Shown piece by piece: positions 27,979-62,117 of a stretch of DNA of 64,000 bases. The DNA is from a virus. Both the position numbers and the translations under genes were made by a program. Every line of letters begins with the position of its first letter. Position 1 is the stretch's first letter. The stretch spans positions 27,483 to 91,482 of the IMG/VR virus record IMGVR_UViG_3300050821_004371; one strand, given 5' to 3'. The notes below the pieces were generated by a model that made no database searches, was not told where the DNA came from, and saw nothing but the letters and a program-made list of their open reading frames with translations.

Positions 27979-28920
27979 ATGAACCTTCACAGCTATCCAA
28001 AAGTTTTTGCTATCGGGCACCGAGCGGTTGCCGACCTGTTTCAGGGCCCCGTGCTCGTTGAGGAAAAGATTGACGGCAGCCAGTTTTCCTTCGGTACGGT
28101 TAACGGACAACTTGAGCTCCGATCCAAAGGCGCGGAACTCTACCCCGACAACCCCGAGAAGATGTTCTCGCTCGGAATCTCTGCCGCCAAAGAACTAATC
28201 CCCGTCCTTCACGATGGCTGGACGTATCGGGCGGAGTTCCTCCAGAAGCCGAAGCATAATTGCATGAAGTACGGGCGGGTGCCTGCCCGCAACGTGATCT
28301 TGTTCGATGTCAATACGGGCGACGAAGTTTATTTAACTCGGGAAGAAAAGGAAGAAGAAGCTGCCCGTATCGGGCTGGAAATAACGCCCGTACTTTATCA
28401 GGGCTTGGTAGACTCGCCCGAAACTCTTTACGGGCTTCTGAAACGAGATAGCATCCTTGGCGGAGGGAAGATCGAAGGAATCGTAGTCAAGAACTACAAT
28501 CAGTTTGGCGCGGACAAGAAAGTCCTGATGGGGAAGTTCGTGACGGAGGAATTCAAGGAAACGCATTCCAAAGAATGGAAAGCCGATAACCCGAGCGTAG
28601 GAGACGTAATAGATCGAATCGTAGCAACTCTGCGGTCAGAAGTCCGCTGGAATAAATCCATTGCCCGGATGAAAGAAGCGGGGGCGCTCGAAAATTCCCC
28701 CAAAGATATCGGAATCTTGCTCAAAGAAATCCAAACAGATATCCGAGCGGAAGAACTTGACTTCATTCAAGGTAAACTGCTAGAGTACGCTCTGCCTCGC
28801 GTCCTGCGGGCGTCCACGGGAGGATTCCCCGAATACTACAAGAAACTGCTGCTTGAATCAGCATTCGAGGAGAAAGAAAGTGCACCATCGTTGGGAGGGT
28901 CGTCACGAGAAGTCAATTGA
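27979..28920 (+). CDS. ATP-dependent RNA ligase (Rnl2-like)
   Basis: SYPK; EEKIDGSQFSF (KxDG); YRAEF; LFDV; IEGIVVK; GKFV. Confidence 0.75.
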   Translation: MNLHSYPKVFAIGHRAVADLFQGPVLVEEKIDGSQFSFGTVNGQLELRSKGAELYPDNPEKMFSLGISAAKELIPVLHDGWTYRAEFLQKPKHNCMKYGRVPARNVILFDVNTGDEVYLTREEKEEEAARIGLEITPVLYQGLVDSPETLYGLLKRDSILGGGKIEGIVVKNYNQFGADKKVLMGKFVTEEFKETHSKEWKADNPSVGDVIDRIVATLRSEVRWNKSIARMKEAGALENSPKDIGILLKEIQTDIRAEELDFIQGKLLEYALPRVLRASTGGFPEYYKKLLLESAFEEKESAPSLGGSSREVN

Positions 28921-44392: not shown

Positions 44393-45697
44393 TTAGTAGT
44401 AAAAAGGCCAACCCGGATAAGGTGCCGCAGGCCCGAGCCAGATCGATCCTACACCCGACTCCATTATGGGCTCGGAGGGCACGAAGCCGAAGTCATCTTG
44501 CTCGCGATTTGCGAACTTGAAAGAGTCTTCGAGCGCCTTCAACCAGAGATTCCACTCCTGCGAAAATCTGGCCCGAATTTTTGCATCTGGGTTTCTGCGG
44601 TATGCTTGCGCTATGCAGCCGTCAACAAACGTCTGGTAGTAATCATCGGGAATAATTCCGAGACTCTGGGTCAGTGTTGTGAATTGCGTAATCCGCTGTT
44701 GCCCCACGCAGTTTATCGTCCAGACTTGGCCCTGCTGTGGAGGAATCGGGTTAAGGCGAATTGCCTGCCCGTTAGGATTGATTGCCGTCCAGACAACGGT
44801 TCCGTCGATGACGGTCGTAGCCACGGTATTCGGGCTAGTCAACGTCGGATAAGTCTGGTTTATAAATACGGTTCCAGTGTCGGCGGGGTTGCTGTAATTT
44901 GCATTTACAAATGCGGCGGTAAATCCGGTTTGATTCGGGCTAGTTCCGACAACGGAGGCCACCGTTACAGACTGCCCGTTTAGGAATGACTCGGCAGTTC
45001 CCTGGAGCAACACGCTCTGCCCAATTTGAACTGAATTCGGGCAAGTAACAGTCAGAACATTTCCGGTAATCGAAGTCGCTGTGATACTCAACGCGAACGG
45101 GTTGAACGTTCCGCAGGTTCCGTAAGCTGTAAGTGCCCAAAGCCCGCCGTTCGGGTCCTCAATCGCGGTCGAGGCGTTTGAAGGTTGGGTCAGTACGGTT
45201 AACGGATTAATATAAACTACGCCGGGACCCGGATTATTTTGCCCGGTCGCTGTTTGAAGTTCGGTATCTCCCCAAGTTCCAGTTTGCGCCGTGCTGTTGG
45301 GTATCCAGCACACTTTGCCCGGATATCCGCATTGCTGGTACGTTACGAGCAAGTCCTTATGGCATTCCAGCGGAATCTTTGGCTTCGGTTGAGAAGTATT
45401 TGTGAAGCAGATTCCCCACGCGCTTTCGAGCCACGCGAGTTGTACGAGGCTCGGAATAAAATAATCCTGTTGCCACGAAATCGTCGGAAACGGGGTAATG
45501 TTAAACCGATTCCATTTCCAGTTCATTGGCTGCCCGTTAGCTCCGCCCAAAAGCATCGCAGACAGTACTTGGTTGGCTAGCTGGATCATGGGCTGCTGCG
45601 AGAATCCGCCCGTAGCTAGCGCAGGCGCAGTATCGCCGTTCGCCGAGATAATATCCGCGACCGACTGTAGGTCGTACGAGCTATTGTTAACGGGCAT
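44393..45697 (-). CDS. head-tail adaptor-like protein (paralog of neighbour)
   Basis: ANQVLSAML...NWKWNR; IRLNPIP; IPDDY. Confidence 0.55.
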   Translation of the reverse strand: MPVNNSSYDLQSVADIISANGDTAPALATGGFSQQPMIQLANQVLSAMLLGGANGQPMNWKWNRFNITPFPTISWQQDYFIPSLVQLAWLESAWGICFTNTSQPKPKIPLECHKDLLVTYQQCGYPGKVCWIPNSTAQTGTWGDTELQTATGQNNPGPGVVYINPLTVLTQPSNASTAIEDPNGGLWALTAYGTCGTFNPFALSITATSITGNVLTVTCPNSVQIGQSVLLQGTAESFLNGQSVTVASVVGTSPNQTGFTAAFVNANYSNPADTGTVFINQTYPTLTSPNTVATTVIDGTVVWTAINPNGQAIRLNPIPPQQGQVWTINCVGQQRITQFTTLTQSLGIIPDDYYQTFVDGCIAQAYRRNPDAKIRARFSQEWNLWLKALEDSFKFANREQDDFGFVPSEPIMESGVGSIWLGPAAPYPGWPFYY

Positions 45698-57064: not shown

Positions 57065-57560
57065 ACGGGCTATTCTGTTGCTAGGAAGCCCGAACAACCC
57101 CAGCAGCTTTTTAGGCCGCAGCAGCCATAGCAAGAGGCTTGGCGTTTAGCATTTCTGTGTCCGTAACGTGGCCACAGCATCCGTGCCCATCCATGCTATC
57201 TCGTCCGCGCAATCGAATCCATTTCAGGCCCGTCACGTCGCCCGTTACCAATTTGCAAATATTGGCAGCCAAACCCGAAGTCAAGTTTTCCGACCGACTT
57301 AACGGGCGATCTGGTGGACCTGCGGGCTTCGAAGCCCGGTCTTGCACGTCTTAACAGCACTTCAACTGAGCAAACTTTAATTGGGAGTAGGCGTGTGCCG
57401 ACGCCTCGTTCTTAAGTCCCCACTCCTGCGTCGTTTCGCGACCTTGGCTTTCTTCAGTCGCTTCCGAAGAAGCGGGTTTTCCCCAGCGGCAACCTGTGGA
57501 GACCTCCCAAACTTTAGGGCAGCAGGTTTGCCGCCTCCACCAGTTCGTTTTCCCCGAACA
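57065..57560 (-). ncRNA. ssrA: circularly permuted (two-piece) tmRNA; acceptor piece ends CCA at 57312, coding piece starts at 57231
   Basis: GACCGGGCTTCGAAGCCCGCAGGTCCACCA precedes GGGCCTGAAATGGATTCGA; acceptor stem with G3.U70; tag ORF (A)AKPLAMAAAA* stop 57113-57111; outer ends approximate. Confidence 0.85.
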
Positions 57561-57753: not shown

Positions 57754-58392
57754 TCATGCAAGGGACGAAAAGATCGTTATTTCTTTGGCCGTATTCTCGA
57801 TGTCCTGAGCGCGATCTTCAATCTCCTCGGGCGTTGCGGGTCGTCCGAAAGCTCGGGCAATTGTAATGGCTAGCCAACTTCGAAGCGGATACTTAGACTT
57901 GCTGGCTTGGCAGGACATTTGGCTGCCGTCTCCGCAGCAAGGCACCAAATTGTACGGGATATGTCCGAGCGCCGAATCAACTCGATCCAGACCCCAAACT
58001 TTGCCTTTGGGCGGTTTGGCTCCGCAGTAAACGCATGGCCGAGGCTCGCCTTTATCCAAGAAATACGGAACAGCTTCTACTGGACTCTTGAATCCGAATT
58101 CGCGATTATTGATCTTGTCGGTCCAAATCATGCTATTGTACCGCTTCCGAAGGCATTTGTAATAGCCGTTGGAAGCTAGTCGGGCGGCATGAATATCGCC
58201 CATAGCAATTCTTTTGGGTTTGGGCAAGAGTCCGGATTCCCGCCAGTCCTTGGCCCACAATTCTATGGTTTCCGGGGTCTGCCCGGTACGAACCGATATT
58301 TCATTGCGGCTACGATTTGCCCGCAAGAACTCTAGAACTTTATCTTGGCACTCTCGCTCGGAACTGAACGATAACTGTTTGAATTTTCCCAC
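57754..58392 (-). CDS. HTH plus HNH-like endonuclease
   Basis: N-terminal HTH-like; PCVYCG...GLDRVDSALGHIPYNLVPCC..CQASK. Confidence 0.7.
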   Translation of the reverse strand: MGKFKQLSFSSERECQDKVLEFLRANRSRNEISVRTGQTPETIELWAKDWRESGLLPKPKRIAMGDIHAARLASNGYYKCLRKRYNSMIWTDKINNREFGFKSPVEAVPYFLDKGEPRPCVYCGAKPPKGKVWGLDRVDSALGHIPYNLVPCCGDGSQMSCQASKSKYPLRSWLAITIARAFGRPATPEEIEDRAQDIENTAKEITIFSSLA

Positions 58393-58532
58393 ATTCCCTC
58401 CTCATAAGGGTGAGTCGGAGCGGAGTGTATGAGGCACCCCGCCCCTTCTCGAAGCAAAGCCTGTATTCCGCATTCGCGGTCATAGCCCCACATTTACTAC
58501 TTTACCACAAACCACCCACTCTTGTCAAGTGG

Positions 58533-60923
58533 TTAGCTGATGGCGCTGGCAGCATCGATTTCCCGGATACGAATGGTCGTATCGGGGCCGAGGCTGGTGG
58601 TGAAATGGACCCTATCAATGTGTTAACTGTACGTTCGTTTTCCGTACAGATCGGACTGTCGCATCGCCCGTAGGCGTTTCCTCGCTCAGTCTCTACTGCT
58701 GCCCGCTTTCGCTGCTTGCAGTCTGTTGGCTTCTCAGCTTCCAGCTTAATCAGAGGAAATTCGCATCATACTCTTTGTACGATGCCCCTAGTTTGTTAAG
58801 GAGGTCCATCCCGGAATCAGCATTATTGTTACTACCCTTTTGGGCGGGCAAGTCGTTTCCGCTTGCCTCTGCAAATTCATTTCCTTGCAGATCGGACTGT
58901 CGCATACACTCGAAAGTGTTCTTCTCGCTCAGTCTCTACTGGTGCTTTCGCTTCCAGTCTGTTCCCATCGCAGGGTTCAGCTTAATCAGAGAAGATTTAA
59001 CGAGGGCCTAAAACCGACCGCTCGGGTCTGCCACGCTAGGCTCCAAATTTCTGGGAGCAGACCAAAGAACGCCGAGCCTTATCGGTAGCGTTCTGGACGA
59101 TATTGCAGCGAATATTCCGCCACTCGCCATCGCCGTACCCAGTGTCACCCTGCGCTCCGAGGTTGATGGAGAAAATTCCATCGCGCCCGAAGATATACGT
59201 ACGCAGAGCAGTCAAGCCCGTAACCGCGCCAGTTCCCGGATTGTAATTCGGGCTGGTAGTTACCAAGTTAGACTGGAAGAAGCTTACGCCGGAAGTCGGG
59301 ATTTCAATGACTTCGGTCAAGTCCGTCGAGATGATTTCATCCAGGCGGCTGTAACCCTGCGGAGTACGCTTCAGGATATCGATTGGCGAATCGTTCGAGT
59401 TGTCTGCAAGCACGTCACCCAACGCAAAAGGATGGATAACGCCCGCAAAGTTCTTCGAAGCTTCGTCAAACGGGCGAACCGAACGTCCGGCAAGTGACTG
59501 CACGGCGTTTCGGATGTAGGTCAGGGAGAGAGTCGTGAAGCTCGTGGTCGAGGTCGCGGCCAGTTTGGTCAGGACCGAAGAATCCACGGAGTTCGCGCCG
59601 TCCGCAGTTGCACGAACCAAAGCGGACAGAGACTCGCCGAGACGGTAGGCCATCTCTCGGGCGACGTTTTCGACAGTGTTGTCGATTGCGGTCGCGAGGG
59701 ACAGCGAGGAGAAGTTAGCGTAATCAGCGTCAACTGTGTTTTGGGAATGCTGTTTTTAGGCAGTCATTACGGGCGTCGCCGTCTCCTGTGTCACCACAGG
59801 GCCACTCTTACTGTCACCAGTAAGTTCGGACTCTATCTTCAGTTCGTTTTCCGAACTGCTTGACGTATTAGTCTCTACGTCTACTCCCCGTTTATTCAAG
59901 ATCGACAACTGTTTCCACAACTCTTCCCGACGTTCGGGATTCATTGTCGGCGGAAGCCGTAGAAATTCTAGGAAGACAATTGCACGCTCTTTTTTGATTA
60001 TCAGATAAGGCATGATTGCCAAAATAAGAAGTTCCATGTCCTTCTTTTTCGACAACCGCCAAATAGACGGAATTTTGCATCTCGGGTTATTCGGGCGTTG
60101 CGTAAAAGTTACGCCCCCGAAGTTTTCCTTCAGCCACGCAGTCAATCTATGGTCCGTATTGCCAACCAATATCTGCGGATTGTAGTTGATGACGCCCCAC
60201 TTCTGGCGTCGTCCAGCTCCGATGCAAAAACAGCCCTCGCCATCAATAATTCCAGCGAGGTACGAATATTTTGATTTGTCTGACATTCTAGCCATCCTTT
60301 TGGATTATTTAATAGGCTTGTAAAACGGTTAGTCTTGGCTCGGTATTGTCTGCCATTATAGCAGATGTCCACCGATATAGTCAAGTTTATGGTGAGCCGC
60401 AAATCAACTCACCGATTGTCGCCGAGGTATTCAGTACAGATACGCTCACGCCCGCGCCAACAGTTCCTTCAGTCGTCTGACTGGTGTTGGCCGCGAGGGG
60501 AACATACATCCATTTTGTTGCGGCGGGCAAGTATAACTGCCAACCTCTTACGGTCGCCCGTAAGTGCGGACTATATCATCACCCGTTTCCGGGGCGCGGC
60601 GTGTAGTCTCTACGGGGTCACTTAGACTTCCCTCGGGATTGACTCAATGAGTTATCCCCCGATATAGCCACGTTATTCAACATCGCTTACGCGATGAGGG
60701 TACCTGTTTGATACAAGTTGTACTGGTTACCAGATTTCATCGGGAGGTCCAAACGTTCGGAACACGCGACGAACGGCGTCTGTGCCTTCAGGTTCTCCTG
60801 TTTCTTGGCACACGAGCTTCGACCCTATTCCGCAAGAACCATTTAACGGAACTTTTTGTCGTAGTACCGAACCGTGGACTGAGGCAGGTTTGACTGGTTA
60901 TTAGAACTCGGGCTATAGCCCAT
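58533..60923 (-). CDS. major capsid protein (N4-gp56-like family), 7 exons: 60923-60846, 60797-60711, 60509-60407, 59730-59087, 59043-59017, 58820-58799, 58615-58533; 347 aa
   Basis: Joined exons (1044 nt) read without stops: MGYSPSSN...YYDKKFR|ENLKAQ...PMKSGNQYNLY|MYVPL...TIGEY|ADYANFSS..TAIDN...IHPF..D...NIVQNA|EPSVADPSG|LIPGWTSY|RVHF...IREIDAASAIS; downstream of a scaffold-like gene. Confidence 0.85.
58616..58798 (-). ncRNA. MCP intron 6: group I intron (183 nt)
   Basis: same core blocks as intron 5; P1 UCCU|UA..UAGGGG; terminal G. Confidence 0.85.
58821..59016 (-). ncRNA. MCP intron 5: group I intron (196 nt)
   Basis: core CAGTAGAGACTGAGCGAG ... ATGCGACAGTCCGATCTG; P1 CGAGCGGU/GCCCUCG; terminal G. 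Confidence 0.85.
59044..59086 (-). other. MCP intron 4: 43-nt core-less group I-like mini-intron
   Basis: exon AGAACGCU pairs intron GGCGUUCU (8 bp, U.G); AGGCUC pairs 3' exon GAGCCU; ends in G; frameshifts if retained. Confidence 0.8.
59756..60295 (-). CDS. LAGLIDADG homing endonuclease (intron-encoded)
   Basis: YSYLAGIIDGEGCF...WLKENFGG...PYLIIKKERA. Confidence 0.9.
   Translation of the reverse strand: MARMSDKSKYSYLAGIIDGEGCFCIGAGRRQKWGVINYNPQILVGNTDHRLTAWLKENFGGVTFTQRPNNPRCKIPSIWRLSKKKDMELLILAIMPYLIIKKERAIVFLEFLRLPPTMNPERREELWKQLSILNKRGVDVETNTSSSSENELKIESELTGDSKSGPVVTQETATPVMTA
60355..60384 (-). promoter_or_regulatory. intron-internal sigma70 promoter for the LAGLIDADG ORF
   Basis: TTGACT-18nt-TATAAT. 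Confidence 0.55.
60510..60710 (-). ncRNA. MCP intron 2: group I intron (201 nt; 5' boundary uncertain by a few nt)
   Basis: core CCGTAGAGACTACACG ... GATGATATAGTCCG; U-ending exon, terminal G. Confidence 0.85.
60798..60845 (-). other. MCP intron 1: 48-nt core-less group I-like mini-intron
   Basis: exon UUCCGU pairs intron GCGGAA (U.G at junction); GGUUCUU pairs 3' exon GAGAACC; ends in G; in-frame TAA and TAG. Confidence 0.75.
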
Positions 60924-61718: not shown

Positions 61719-62117
61719 CTATTCTCCACTGATGACTTCCCAATCTTTATCGGGCGACGAATTGATCGCCTCGCGATACGGGCGTGCCTGCTGAATGCAC
61801 CCGTCAGACGACGGATTGTACGGATCGTTCGGGTCTGTCCCGATTTGCCAGCCATGAATTTTGAAACCGTCGCGATTGTACATCTGGTTACTCGGATCGG
61901 GAGTCAACGGGATTGTTACAGGCCCCGTCTTCTGGCTATCGTATGCCGCGCCCGCCGTGTACTTTCCTACGGGCAATGATCCGATGTCCTTAACGGCCTG
62001 AGTCGCGGGATTGTTGCGCCCTTGAACTCCGCCCCGAACATTATGCCCGGACCAACCCGTAGAAAAGAATTCTCCGTTATGGAATACTTTCCCGGCTTTG
62101 ATGTTAAACGTCCACAT
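61719..62117 (-). CDS. Tlde1/DUF2778 L,D-transpeptidase-fold peptidoglycan enzyme
   Basis: GWSG...NNP..Q.VKDIGSLPVGKY...LTPDP....RDGFKIHG......SDGCI. Confidence 0.75.
   Translation of the reverse strand: MWTFNIKAGKVFHNGEFFSTGWSGHNVRGGVQGRNNPATQAVKDIGSLPVGKYTAGAAYDSQKTGPVTIPLTPDPSNQMYNRDGFKIHGWQIGTDPNDPYNPSSDGCIQQARPYREAINSSPDKDWEVISGE

What the first reader, a model, noticed from the sequence alone, without database searches (positions are those of the whole stretch)
58533..60923. Major capsid gene split into seven exons by six introns
The ORF track shows only a 205-aa fragment. Joining seven exons (78, 87, 103, 644, 27, 22 and 83 nt; 1044 nt total) at U|...G| boundaries gives an uninterrupted 347-aa protein resembling N4-gp56-family capsids. 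More than half of the locus is intron, in what is normally the most highly expressed late gene, and two exons are under 30 nt. Phage group I introns are most often reported singly and in DNA-metabolism genes. Splicing could act as a timer or checkpoint for capsid production.
Basis: partly seen in the sequence, partly recalled or inferred. Interest (0 to 1): 0.8.

Follow-up and report, generated by a model that had tools for sequence, protein, structure and literature searches.

The report
Six-intron capsid gene with mini-introns
The single capsid gene of a soil phage is broken by six introns that are all cut out of its RNA, and two of them are tiny (43 and 48 bases) with splice-site signals but no ribozyme of their own, so they probably use the ribozyme of the next intron downstream.

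Summary
Confirmed. Joined, they give a 347-aa protein that is gap-free and 96% identical to the uninterrupted gene of a related phage. That relative's protein models as an HK97/N4-like capsid fold.

Contigs from three soil metatranscriptomes skip precisely the six predicted intervals; the DNA run does not. This is RNA splicing, not ribosome hopping.

Four interruptions (201 nt, 676 nt with a LAGLIDADG gene, 196 nt, 183 nt) are complete group I introns. The other two (48 and 43 nt) have a P1 helix with U.G, an adjacent P10 guide and a terminal G, but no catalytic core.

In related phages, all 17 distinct mini-introns lie 27-114 nt upstream of a full intron. Several are deletion derivatives of full introns at the same site. 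They most likely borrow the downstream ribozyme (inferred, about 0.6). The 48-nt one is retained in two of three RNA samples.

Multi-intron capsid genes are published. I found no publication on core-less phage mini-introns, though this scan has already noted them in at least eight other phage genomes.

The parts
58533..60923 (-). Major capsid protein gene, seven exons and six introns. AGGTG Shine-Dalgarno sequence 6 nt before the ATG at 60923; stop codon at 58535-58533.
60846..60923 (-). Exon 1 (78 nt, MGYSP...KKFR)
60798..60845 (-). Mini-intron I1 (48 nt, phase 0), no catalytic core. Its first codon is an in-frame TAA. The P10 guide GGTTCTT (60840-60834) pairs with the 3' exon start GAGAACC. 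The P1 guide GCGGAAT (60833-60827) pairs with the exon end (G)TTCCGT, with U.G at the splice site. It ends in G. A full 582-nt intron with the same guide sits at this site in L156.
   Evidence: spliced in an X5 contig, retained in X4 and X6 contigs
60711..60797 (-). Exon 2 (87 nt)
60510..60710 (-). Intron I2 (201 nt, phase 0), complete group I intron without an ORF
   Evidence: Rfam RF00028 51.4 bits against gathering score 50; family core HMM E 1.2e-5; spliced in X4 and X5
60407..60509 (-). Exon 3 (103 nt)
59731..60406 (-). Intron I3 (676 nt, phase 1), group I intron carrying a homing-endonuclease gene. P1 is 7+2 bp (guide GCTCACC).
   Evidence: Rfam RF00028 33.6 bits, E 9e-6; spliced in X4 and in a variant strain in X6
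59756..60295 (-). LAGLIDADG homing endonuclease ORF (179 aa) inside I3; its 3' half overlaps the ribozyme core
   Evidence: Pfam PF00961 23.8 bits against cut-off 23.1; phrog_5046 E 3.9e-17
59087..59730 (-). Exon 4 (644 nt), which contains the 205-aa ORF
59044..59086 (-). Mini-intron I4 (43 nt, phase 0, shifts the frame), no catalytic core. The P10 guide AGGCTC (59079-59074) pairs with the 3' exon GAGCCT. The P1 guide GGCGTTCT (59073-59066) pairs with the exon end AGAACGCT, with U.G at the splice site. It ends in G.
   Evidence: spliced in X4 and X5 contigs
59017..59043 (-). Exon 5 (27 nt, EPSVADPSG)
58821..59016 (-). Intron I5 (196 nt, phase 0), compact group I intron of a family that Rfam does not detect
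   Evidence: core HMM E 4e-35; P3-P9 and P7 covariation; spliced in X4 and X5
58799..58820 (-). Exon 6 (22 nt, LIPGWTS plus 1 nt)
58616..58798 (-). Intron I6 (183 nt, phase 1), paralogue of I5
   Evidence: (E 2e-29); spliced in X4 and X5
58533..58615 (-). Exon 7 (83 nt including the stop)

Best explanation
This is the major capsid (HK97-fold, distantly N4-gp56-like) gene of a complete 91-kb soil phage. It has been colonised by at least six group I introns. All six are removed from the RNA, at U|...G| junctions, to give one 347-aa reading frame. I put that at about 0.93.

Four of them are complete ribozymes (about 0.9): I2 (201 nt), I3 (676 nt, with a LAGLIDADG homing endonuclease), and I5 and I6 (196 and 183 nt, paralogues of a compact family).

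I1 (48 nt) and I4 (43 nt) are deletion derivatives of such introns. They keep only the substrate side of the reaction. This consists of a contiguous internal guide that forms P10 with the 3' exon and P1 with the 5' exon (U.G at the cleavage site), a short tail, and the terminal G. They have no P3-P9 core.

The inferred mechanism (about 0.6) runs as follows. The mini-intron is transcribed first. Its P1 hairpin and terminal G then dock into the catalytic core of the next full intron, 27 nt (I4 to I5) or 87 nt (I1 to I2) downstream on the same transcript. That core performs both transesterifications on the mini-intron before, or in competition with, its own excision. If the helper leaves first, the mini-intron is stranded. 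This would explain transcripts that keep I1 after I2 is gone; those transcripts stop at the in-frame UAA.

Shown: the anatomy, the RNA junctions, the covariation and the association with a downstream intron. Inferred: which core does the chemistry. The confidence given (0.6) is for the whole statement, including the inferred borrowing step.
For: - **Exon join.** The join is open, gap-free against homologues, and 96% identical to the intron-less relative L007.
- **Fold.** The AF2 model of that relative has pLDDT 85. Foldseek top hits are phage capsids, including N4 9e99 (E about 1e-11 to 1e-12).
- **RNA.** Contigs of metatranscriptome runs X4, X5 and X6 (three studies) join across all six predicted intervals, with no differences from the window listed in X4's pieces. 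DNA run X1 carries the unspliced form and no joints.
- **Full introns.** I2 scores 51.4 bits on Rfam and I3 33.6 bits. For the I5/I6 family, 43 pairs are 97.8% paired and 34 have compensatory changes. These include a P7 pseudoknot with a bulged nucleotide. Slid controls are at most 42.5% paired.
- **Mini-introns.** All 16 distinct minis tested at 8 sites have an adjacent P10 and P1 guide with U.G. The summed pairing is 215 bp against 68 +/- 7.5 in shuffles. A 17th mini (L160) was checked by eye. The guides covary with synonymous exon changes: exon GGTT/GGCT/GGAT pairs with guide GACC/GGCC/GTCC, and TGAGCC/CGAGCC with GGCTCA/GGCTCG.
- **Same sites carry either form.** Site 26 has the 582-nt L156 intron with the same guide as I1. 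Site 54 has 652 nt against 45-48 nt, site 331 has 229 against 45, and site 20 has 237 against 41-42.
- **Polarity.** All 17 distinct minis have a full intron 27-114 nt downstream. L062 looked like an exception but proved to have a missed intron 48 nt downstream. No orphan mini was found in 160 related loci.
- **Only cores in the genome.** A family core HMM over the whole 91-kb genome, and an Rfam scan of the window, detect no group I core outside this gene; the first 27.5 kb of the genome were not scanned with Rfam.
Against: - No experiment or read-level data show which ribozyme acts on the minis.
- Co-occurrence with full introns is partly expected from common origin and from clustering of insertion sites.
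- The relatives are not phylogenetically independent: roughly nine independent site/lineage cases.
- The RNA evidence is from assembled contigs (depth 2-11), which cannot give the order of splicing or isoform ratios. The I1 joint rests on one 206-nt contig with 28 nt on its shorter side.
An intron-poor DNA allele in the same soils is therefore not formally excluded.
- The phage encodes an RNA ligase, so a protein-assisted route is conceivable.
Confidence: 0.6

Rival explanations
1. The minis are spliced in trans by free, already excised group I introns (or any group I core in the infected cell). No cis relationship to the neighbouring intron is needed.
For: Group I ribozymes can act on separate substrates in vitro (for example the Azoarcus trans-splicing work, PMC3895272). 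Capsid mRNA and its excised introns should be abundant late in infection. I1 is spliced in X5 although it lies 87 nt from I2.
Against: The strict polarity and proximity (17 of 17 minis lie 27-114 nt upstream of a full intron) are not predicted by a trans model. A contig with I2 removed but I1 retained (X4) suggests that free ribozyme does not efficiently rescue a stranded mini.
Confidence: 0.15
2. The minis are removed by proteins: an endonuclease plus the phage RNA ligase. The P1/P10 pairing acts only as a splint that aligns the exons.
For: The genome encodes an RNA ligase (PF09414, 50.6 bits, window about 28048-28515). The cultured relative Tunturi_3 is annotated with RNA ligases and an RNA 2'-phosphotransferase.
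Against: All 17 minis keep the U.G wobble exactly at the 5' splice site and a terminal G. These are requirements of group I chemistry, not of any known endonuclease/ligase pathway. No RtcB or Tpt1 was found in this genome. No bulge-helix-bulge motif was noticed by eye.
Confidence: 0.07
3. The minis are autonomous minimal ribozymes, as was claimed for the 56-81-nt 'degenerate' group I introns of fungal rDNA. They would use P1, P10, a P7 remnant and exon sequence.
For: PMC3160393 reports 63-75-nt introns with P1, P7 and P10 and cites in vitro splicing of a 67-nt one. Many mini tails keep an RGUC block like the 3' strand of P7. The site-54 minis retain the CAGTCGAG block of the full intron.
Against: 34-62 nt leaves no 5' strand of P7, no P3-P8 and no P4-P6. 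If the minis were autonomous, orphans should exist, yet none was found in 160 loci. I1 is retained in two RNA samples in which the full introns covered by those contigs are removed.
Confidence: 0.06
4. The 'spliced' contigs derive from intron-poor DNA alleles of the same phage population that contaminate the RNA libraries, not from splicing.
For: Intron presence/absence polymorphism is common in phage populations. Relatives with empty sites exist (L007).
Against: No differences from the window are listed in any piece of the X4 contig, whereas the nearest intron-less relative differs at many silent sites. The joints appear in three RNA libraries of different studies and not in DNA run X1. An allele that lacks five introns yet keeps I1 would be needed.
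Confidence: 0.05
5. The 43-48-nt gaps are coding gaps crossed by ribosome hopping (T4 gene 60 or mitochondrial 'byp' type).
For: The size matches (the T4 gap is 50 nt). A stop codon lies right at the start of I1. Possible take-off/landing pairs exist (AAG/AAG for I1, AAC/AAU for I4), read.
Against: RNA contigs lack the 43-nt gap (X4, X5) and the 48-nt gap (X5) at the exact group I junctions. The P1/P10 covariation has no role in hopping.
Confidence: 0.01

Closest known systems
Phage genes with several group I introns: Staphylococcus phage Twort orf142 (three introns, exon skipping; Landthaler & Shub 1999, cited in PMC11878797) and the crAss-like Zeta-group capsid gene in five fragments (PMC7886860)
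   Same: Several group I introns, some with homing endonucleases, packed into one late or structural phage gene with short exons between them.
   Different: Here there are six interruptions, each with an RNA-level junction in environmental transcriptomes. Two of them lack a ribozyme core. The published cases describe only full-size introns.
Capsid-gene introns of mycobacteriophage LittleE and lactococcal phage Tuc2009 (PMC3706429)
   Same: A group I-type intron (U at the exon end, G at the intron end, LAGLIDADG ORF) in a highly expressed capsid gene, spliced efficiently.
   Different: Those are single introns of several hundred nt; there are no mini-introns.
Small 'degenerate' group I introns (56-81 nt) of fungal nuclear SSU rDNA, such as Phialophora, Porpidia and Arthonia (PMC3160393)
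   Same: Very short introns that keep P1 and P10 (and a P7 remnant), lose the rest of the core, and appear to derive from full introns by deletion.
   Different: Those are in eukaryotic rRNA genes, are reported as self-splicing, and have no stated dependence on a neighbouring intron. The phage minis are shorter (34-62 nt), sit in a protein-coding gene, and always lie just upstream of a full intron.
Euglena chloroplast group III introns and other degenerate group II introns, and by extension spliceosomal introns (own knowledge)
   Same: Introns that lost most of their catalytic RNA and are thought to depend on catalytic parts supplied by another molecule.
   Different: Different intron class and chemistry (lariat rather than exogenous G). 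No group I counterpart was found in my searches of the held paper library.
Engineered trans-acting group I ribozymes (Tetrahymena, Azoarcus; PMC3895272)
   Same: A group I core acts on a P1 substrate that is not its own 5' splice site.
   Different: Those are laboratory constructs in which the guide belongs to the ribozyme. Here the guide belongs to the substrate intron, and the arrangement is natural and in cis.
Programmed translational bypassing (T4 gene 60, 50-nt gap; own knowledge)
   Same: A gap of about 45-50 nt containing a stop codon inside an essential phage gene.
   Different: Here the gap is absent from the RNA.

Membership tests
Group I intron (Rfam RF00028): I2 | Covariance-model score at or above the gathering score | tested here: met
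   51.4 bits against 50
Group I intron: I3 | Covariance-model score at or above the gathering score | tested here: inconclusive
   33.6 bits, below 50, but E 9e-6. It also has a 7+2-bp P1 with U.G, a terminal G and a LAGLIDADG ORF.
Group I intron: I5 and I6 | Covariance-model match to RF00028 | tested here: not met
   No hit at E up to 10. Homologues in relatives are also missed.
Group I intron: I5 and I6 | Conserved core helices P3-P8, P4-P6, P9 and the P7 pseudoknot with a bulged nucleotide, supported by covariation | tested here: met
   13 homologues: 97.8% of cells paired, 34 of 43 pairs with compensatory changes, slid controls at most 42.5%. Sequence link to I2 at E 1.2e-5.
Group I intron: all six | 5' exon ends in U paired with G of an internal guide (P1); the intron ends in G | tested here: met
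Group I intron: all six | Removed from RNA at the predicted junctions | tested here: met
   Joints in X4, X5 and X6 contigs. The I1 joint is in one run only.
Group I intron: minis I1 and I4 | Own catalytic core (P3-P9, G-binding P7) | tested here: not met
   48 and 43 nt, of which 14 are guide. No Rfam or family-HMM match. By eye, only an RGUC block like the 3' strand of P7 remains in their tails (listing; the site-54 comparison shows the same in relatives).
Group I intron: minis I1 and I4 | Self-splicing with exogenous G in vitro | not testable with these tools
   Needs transcription and splicing assays.
N4-gp56 family major capsid protein (TIGR04387) | Score above the curated cut-off (60 bits) | tested here: not met
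   Homologues P0003 and P0013 score 32.4 and 40.6 bits (E 6e-8 and 2e-10); exon 4 alone gives no hit.
HK97-fold major capsid protein | Predicted structure matches solved HK97-fold capsid proteins | tested here: met
   Model of the 96%-identical intron-less relative, pLDDT 85. Top matches: GP4, Moo19 and N4 capsids, E about 1e-11 to 1e-12, TM 0.60-0.66.
LAGLIDADG homing endonuclease | Pfam PF00961 above the gathering score | tested here: met
   23.8 bits against 23.1, residues 13-99
Programmed translational bypass | The coding gap is present in the mature mRNA | tested here: not met
   The gap is absent from RNA contigs.
Fungal small degenerate group I introns | P1, P10 and a two-stranded P7 within 56-81 nt | tested here: inconclusive
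   P1 and P10 are met. No 5' strand of P7 was found by eye in the minis; only a 3'-strand-like block.

The most novel reading that the evidence does not exclude
I1 and I4 are natural 'one ribozyme, two introns' units. They are core-less group I introns whose P1/P10/terminal-G substrate is processed in cis by the ribozyme of the next intron downstream, in a co-transcriptional race with that intron's own excision. This would be a group I counterpart of degenerate group II or spliceosomal dependence on catalytic RNA supplied from elsewhere. Because stranded I1 transcripts end at an in-frame UAA, the race would also set how much capsid mRNA is productive.
Probability: 0.55. Interest if true: 0.9.

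Novelty: new variant of a known kind. Interest (0 to 1): 0.8.

Why it matters
Group I introns are textbook self-contained ribozymes. An intron that keeps only the substrate helices and is still removed in vivo would show that a group I core can serve a second intron in nature. That is the kind of division of labour proposed for the origin of trans-acting splicing machinery.

This locus adds RNA-level junctions for both mini-introns and for the 27- and 22-nt exons. It also shows that public protein databases hold mis-called capsid proteins that read into these introns (for example P0001). It offers simple constructs, E4-I4-E5-I5-E6 and E1-I1-E2-I2-E3, for a direct biochemical test.

Practically, phage annotation pipelines will break such genes into fragments, and stop-containing 40-50-nt gaps can be mistaken for frameshifts, pseudogenes or bypass sites.

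Tried and rejected
- **Family searches on the 205-aa ORF.** Pfam and PHROGs gave nothing useful. Pfam on intact homologues gave nothing. A profile search of PDB sequences gave only chance hits, so the fold had to be shown by modelling.
- **Translational bypass.** It was my first idea for the 48- and 43-nt gaps, because codon pairs AAG/AAG and AAC/AAU could serve. I dropped it.
- **Rfam on I5/I6 and their homologues.** No hit.
- **Nucleotide alignment of the locus with intron-less relatives.** Too diverged at silent sites to give clean empty sites; I used protein-guided spliced alignment instead.
- **L052/L147.** Spurious 'introns' there come from a contig that ends inside an intron.
- **L062.** The apparent exception (a mini with no downstream helper) was an artefact of my aligner. 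A full intron at codon 343 begins 48 nt downstream.
- **Search for other split genes.** Using Tunturi_3 ORFs gave only 51 matches. The one candidate (window 44393-45697) is an in-frame 75-aa insertion with no Rfam hit, not an intron. This test covers few genes.
- **P7 strand swap.** I looked for covariation between mini tails and the neighbour's P7, but P7 hardly varies, so there is no test.
- **Papers.** Foley 2000 and Landthaler & Shub 1999 are not held. Literature searches for core-less or miniature group I introns in phages found none.
- **Depth.** Depth over introns in the RNA runs was not used as evidence; only the joints were.
Full report
**What is there**

The window is the last 64 kb of a complete 91,482-bp virus record with direct terminal repeats. 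On the minus strand between 60923 and 58533 the ORF list shows only a 205-aa frame (59036-59653) and a 179-aa frame (59756-60295).

The 205-aa fragment finds about 60 full-length relatives of 360-425 aa. Two of them are named N4-gp56 family major capsid protein by their source. It also finds the 'major head protein' of the cultured Acidobacteria phage Tunturiibacter phage Tunturi_3 (77% identity).

tblastn with these relatives located the missing pieces of the gene on the same strand.
- E1 60923-60846
- E2 60797-60711
- E3 60509-60407
- E4 59730-59087
- E5 59043-59017
- E6 58820-58799
- E7 58615-58533

Joined, they give 1044 nt and a 347-aa protein that aligns to intact homologues without a gap at any junction. 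It is 334/347 identical to the uninterrupted capsid gene of a related 96-kb phage (L007).

**Is it a capsid protein?**

The window's spliced protein cannot be submitted as such, so I modelled the 96%-identical intron-less relative with an alignment of 63 homologues. The model has mean pLDDT 85.2 and pTM 0.82. Foldseek against the PDB returns only tailed-phage HK97-fold capsid proteins at the top: Ralstonia GP4, Shigella Moo19 and Escherichia N4 9e99, with E about 1e-11 to 1e-12 and TM 0.60-0.66.

NCBIfam TIGR04387 (N4-gp56 family) hits two homologues at 32-41 bits, below its 60-bit cut-off. The protein is a distant relative of that family rather than a member by the curated threshold.

**Are the transcripts spliced?**

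Three soil metatranscriptome runs from three studies hold 21-39% of the sampled words of the 2.5-kb stretch. Laid on the locus, their contigs join across exactly the predicted intervals:

| Interval skipped | Length | Intron | Runs with the joint |
|---|---|---|---|
| 58616-58798 | 183 nt | I6 | X4, X5 |
| 58821-59016 | 196 nt | I5 | X4, X5 |
| 59044-59086 | 43 nt | I4 | X4, X5 |
| 59731-60406 | 676 nt | I3 | X4, and a variant strain in X6 |
| 60510-60710 | 201 nt | I2 | X4, X5 |
| 60798-60845 | 48 nt | I1 | X5 |

The 1537-nt X4 contig shows no differences from the window in any listed piece. DNA run X1, probably the source of this genome, carries the continuous genomic form and no joint.

This rules out translational bypass, which had been my first idea for the two short, stop-containing or frame-shifting gaps.

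One asymmetry is worth recording. The X4 contig has five introns removed but runs straight through I1, and an X6 contig also keeps I1. I1 is therefore spliced incompletely, or late. An I1-retaining mRNA stops at the UAA that is I1's first codon.

**The four full introns**

- **I2** reaches the Rfam gathering score for Intron_gpI (51.4 against 50).
- **I3** scores 33.6 bits (E 9e-6). It carries a LAGLIDADG endonuclease ORF (Pfam 23.8 against 23.1 bits).
- **I5 and I6** are paralogues that Rfam does not detect.

I collected 13 homologous introns of about 180-240 nt from eight insertion sites in related capsid genes. The consensus structure has P3, P4, P5, P6, P8, P9 and a further hairpin. I added the P7 pseudoknot (GACUA/UAGUC, with a bulged nucleotide and a flanking G-C or A-U pair). 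Of 43 pairs, 97.8% of cells are paired and 34 pairs show compensatory changes. With partners slid by 1-3 columns, at most 42.5% are paired.

A sequence profile of this core finds I5 (4e-35), I6 (2e-29) and I2 (1e-5), and nothing else in the 91-kb genome.

**The two mini-introns**

I1 (48 nt) and I4 (43 nt) are far too short for a group I core. They are nonetheless built like the 5' and 3' ends of one.
- In **I4** the guide reads AGGCTC-GGCGTTCT. The first block pairs with the first six bases of exon 5 (P10). The second pairs with the last eight bases of exon 4 (P1), with the U.G wobble at the cleavage site.
- In **I1** the guide reads GGTTCTT-GCGGAAT. It pairs with GAGAACC and (G)TTCCGT in the same way.

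Both end in G.

**The same thing in relatives**

A protein-guided spliced alignment of 160 related loci (80 viral and 80 metagenomic contigs) shows that most capsid genes of this family are uninterrupted. About 30 loci carry introns, at some 15 different codon positions.

Seventeen distinct interruptions of 34-62 nt occur at nine sites. The 16 tested all have the contiguous P10 and P1 guide, with P1 of 6-8 bp (U.G) and P10 of 4-8 bp. The summed pairing is 215 bp against 68 +/- 7.5 in shuffled controls. The 17th (L160) shows the same by eye.

The guides covary with synonymous changes in the exons. At the 'IPGW' site the exon ends GGTT, GGCT or GGAT pair with guides GACC, GGCC or GTCC. At site 307 TGAGCC and CGAGCC pair with GGCTCA and GGCTCG.

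The minis are deletion derivatives of full introns:
- At I1's own site, contig L156 has a 582-nt intron with the same guide.
- At site 54, a 652-nt intron and 45-48-nt minis share the first 28 nt, a CAGTCGAG block (the region of the 3' strand of P7) and the last 7-13 nt.
- Sites 20 and 331 show the same pairing of long and short forms.

**Why I think they borrow a neighbour's core**

Every one of the 17 minis is followed 27-114 nt downstream by a full-size group I intron. The single apparent exception, L062, turned out to have a full intron 48 nt downstream that my aligner had read through. No capsid gene has a mini as its last intron, and none has a mini without a full intron.

Polarity makes sense if the helper must still be attached when the mini is available. 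An upstream ribozyme would fold and leave before the mini is transcribed.

Apart from the four introns of this gene, no group I core was detected in this genome; the family HMM covered all of it and Rfam covered the window only.

The isoform with I2 removed and I1 retained is what a lost race would leave behind.

This is inference. Co-occurrence is partly expected from shared origin and from clustering of insertion sites. The relatives give perhaps nine independent cases, and contigs cannot give the order of splicing. I put cis-borrowing at about 0.6. The rivals are trans action of free introns (0.15), a protein-assisted route using the phage RNA ligase found (0.07), autonomy as claimed for fungal mini-introns (0.06), and DNA-allele contamination (0.05).

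**Comparison with what is known**

Introns in phage capsid genes are published: Tuc2009 and LittleE (PMC3706429), and a crAss-like capsid gene in five fragments (PMC7886860). So are several introns in one phage gene (Twort orf142, cited in PMC11878797). The multi-intron gene as such is a new member of a known kind, although I know of no published phage gene with six interruptions.

Very short 'degenerate' group I introns with P1, P7 and P10 are described in fungal rDNA (56-81 nt; PMC3160393). They are reported as self-splicing, with no stated dependence on a neighbour.

I found no paper on core-less group I introns in phages or bacteria, or on dependence on a neighbouring intron.

I reached my reading before seeing those notes, and they agree with it.

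What this locus adds:
- RNA junctions for both minis and for all four full introns.
- Partial retention of I1.
- A full-length intron at I1's own site in a relative.
- Resolution of the one apparent exception to the downstream-helper rule.

**Verdict**

The timer idea remains untested.

Noticed in passing
window 57111-57372 (-): Circularly permuted (two-piece) tmRNA gene about 1.2 kb downstream of the capsid gene. Rfam RF04321 scores 68.5 bits against gathering score 47.
   Followed up: partly
window 57754-58392 (-): A 212-aa ORF about 140 nt downstream of the capsid gene, with an N-terminal HTH and a cysteine-rich endonuclease VII/HNH-like part (phrog_1035 E 8e-6). It is a candidate free-standing homing endonuclease beside the intron-rich gene.
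   Followed up: partly
window 58646 and 59855 (-): Near-copies of the genome-wide motif TACGGAAAACGGA lie in hairpins of introns I6 (P9, 1 mismatch) and I3 (P8, 2 mismatches). The window holds 19 exact copies and 66 within 2 mismatches.
   Followed up: partly
L073:5495-5735: After the stop of a relative's capsid gene there is a duplicated 3' gene fragment (..IREIDAA), then a full group I intron, then the last codons (..AIS, stop). This is an intron with pseudo-exon flanks sitting outside the gene.
   Followed up: no
L062:5274-5459: A further intron site at codon 343, seven codons before the stop, with P1 CTGCGT/GCGCAG. Together with the other sites, this gives about 15 distinct intron sites in one 347-codon gene family.
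   Followed up: partly
protein P0001 (contig of L052/L147): The closest database protein (380 aa) has a C-terminal stretch of about 60 aa that is a read-through into an intron at the I6 site. Public gene calls for this family are corrupted by introns.
   Followed up: partly
window 28048-28515 (+): RNA ligase domain (PF09414, 50.6 bits) in a 394-aa frame. No RtcB or Tpt1 in the genome.
   Followed up: partly
window 44393-45697 (-): A structural gene homologous to Tunturi_3 gp12 carries an in-frame insertion of about 75 aa relative to that phage. It is an open frame with no Rfam hit, so it is not an intron.
   Followed up: yes
window 61719-62117 (-): A 132-aa ORF with a Tlde1 (L,D-transpeptidase-like effector) domain about 0.8 kb upstream of the capsid gene (Pfam 35.8 bits; phrog_24118).
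   Followed up: no
window 58480-58532 (-): Directly after the capsid stop there is a TTGACA ... TGGTAAAGT stretch that is also present after the gene in L062 and L073. It looks like a conserved promoter for the next gene.
   Followed up: no
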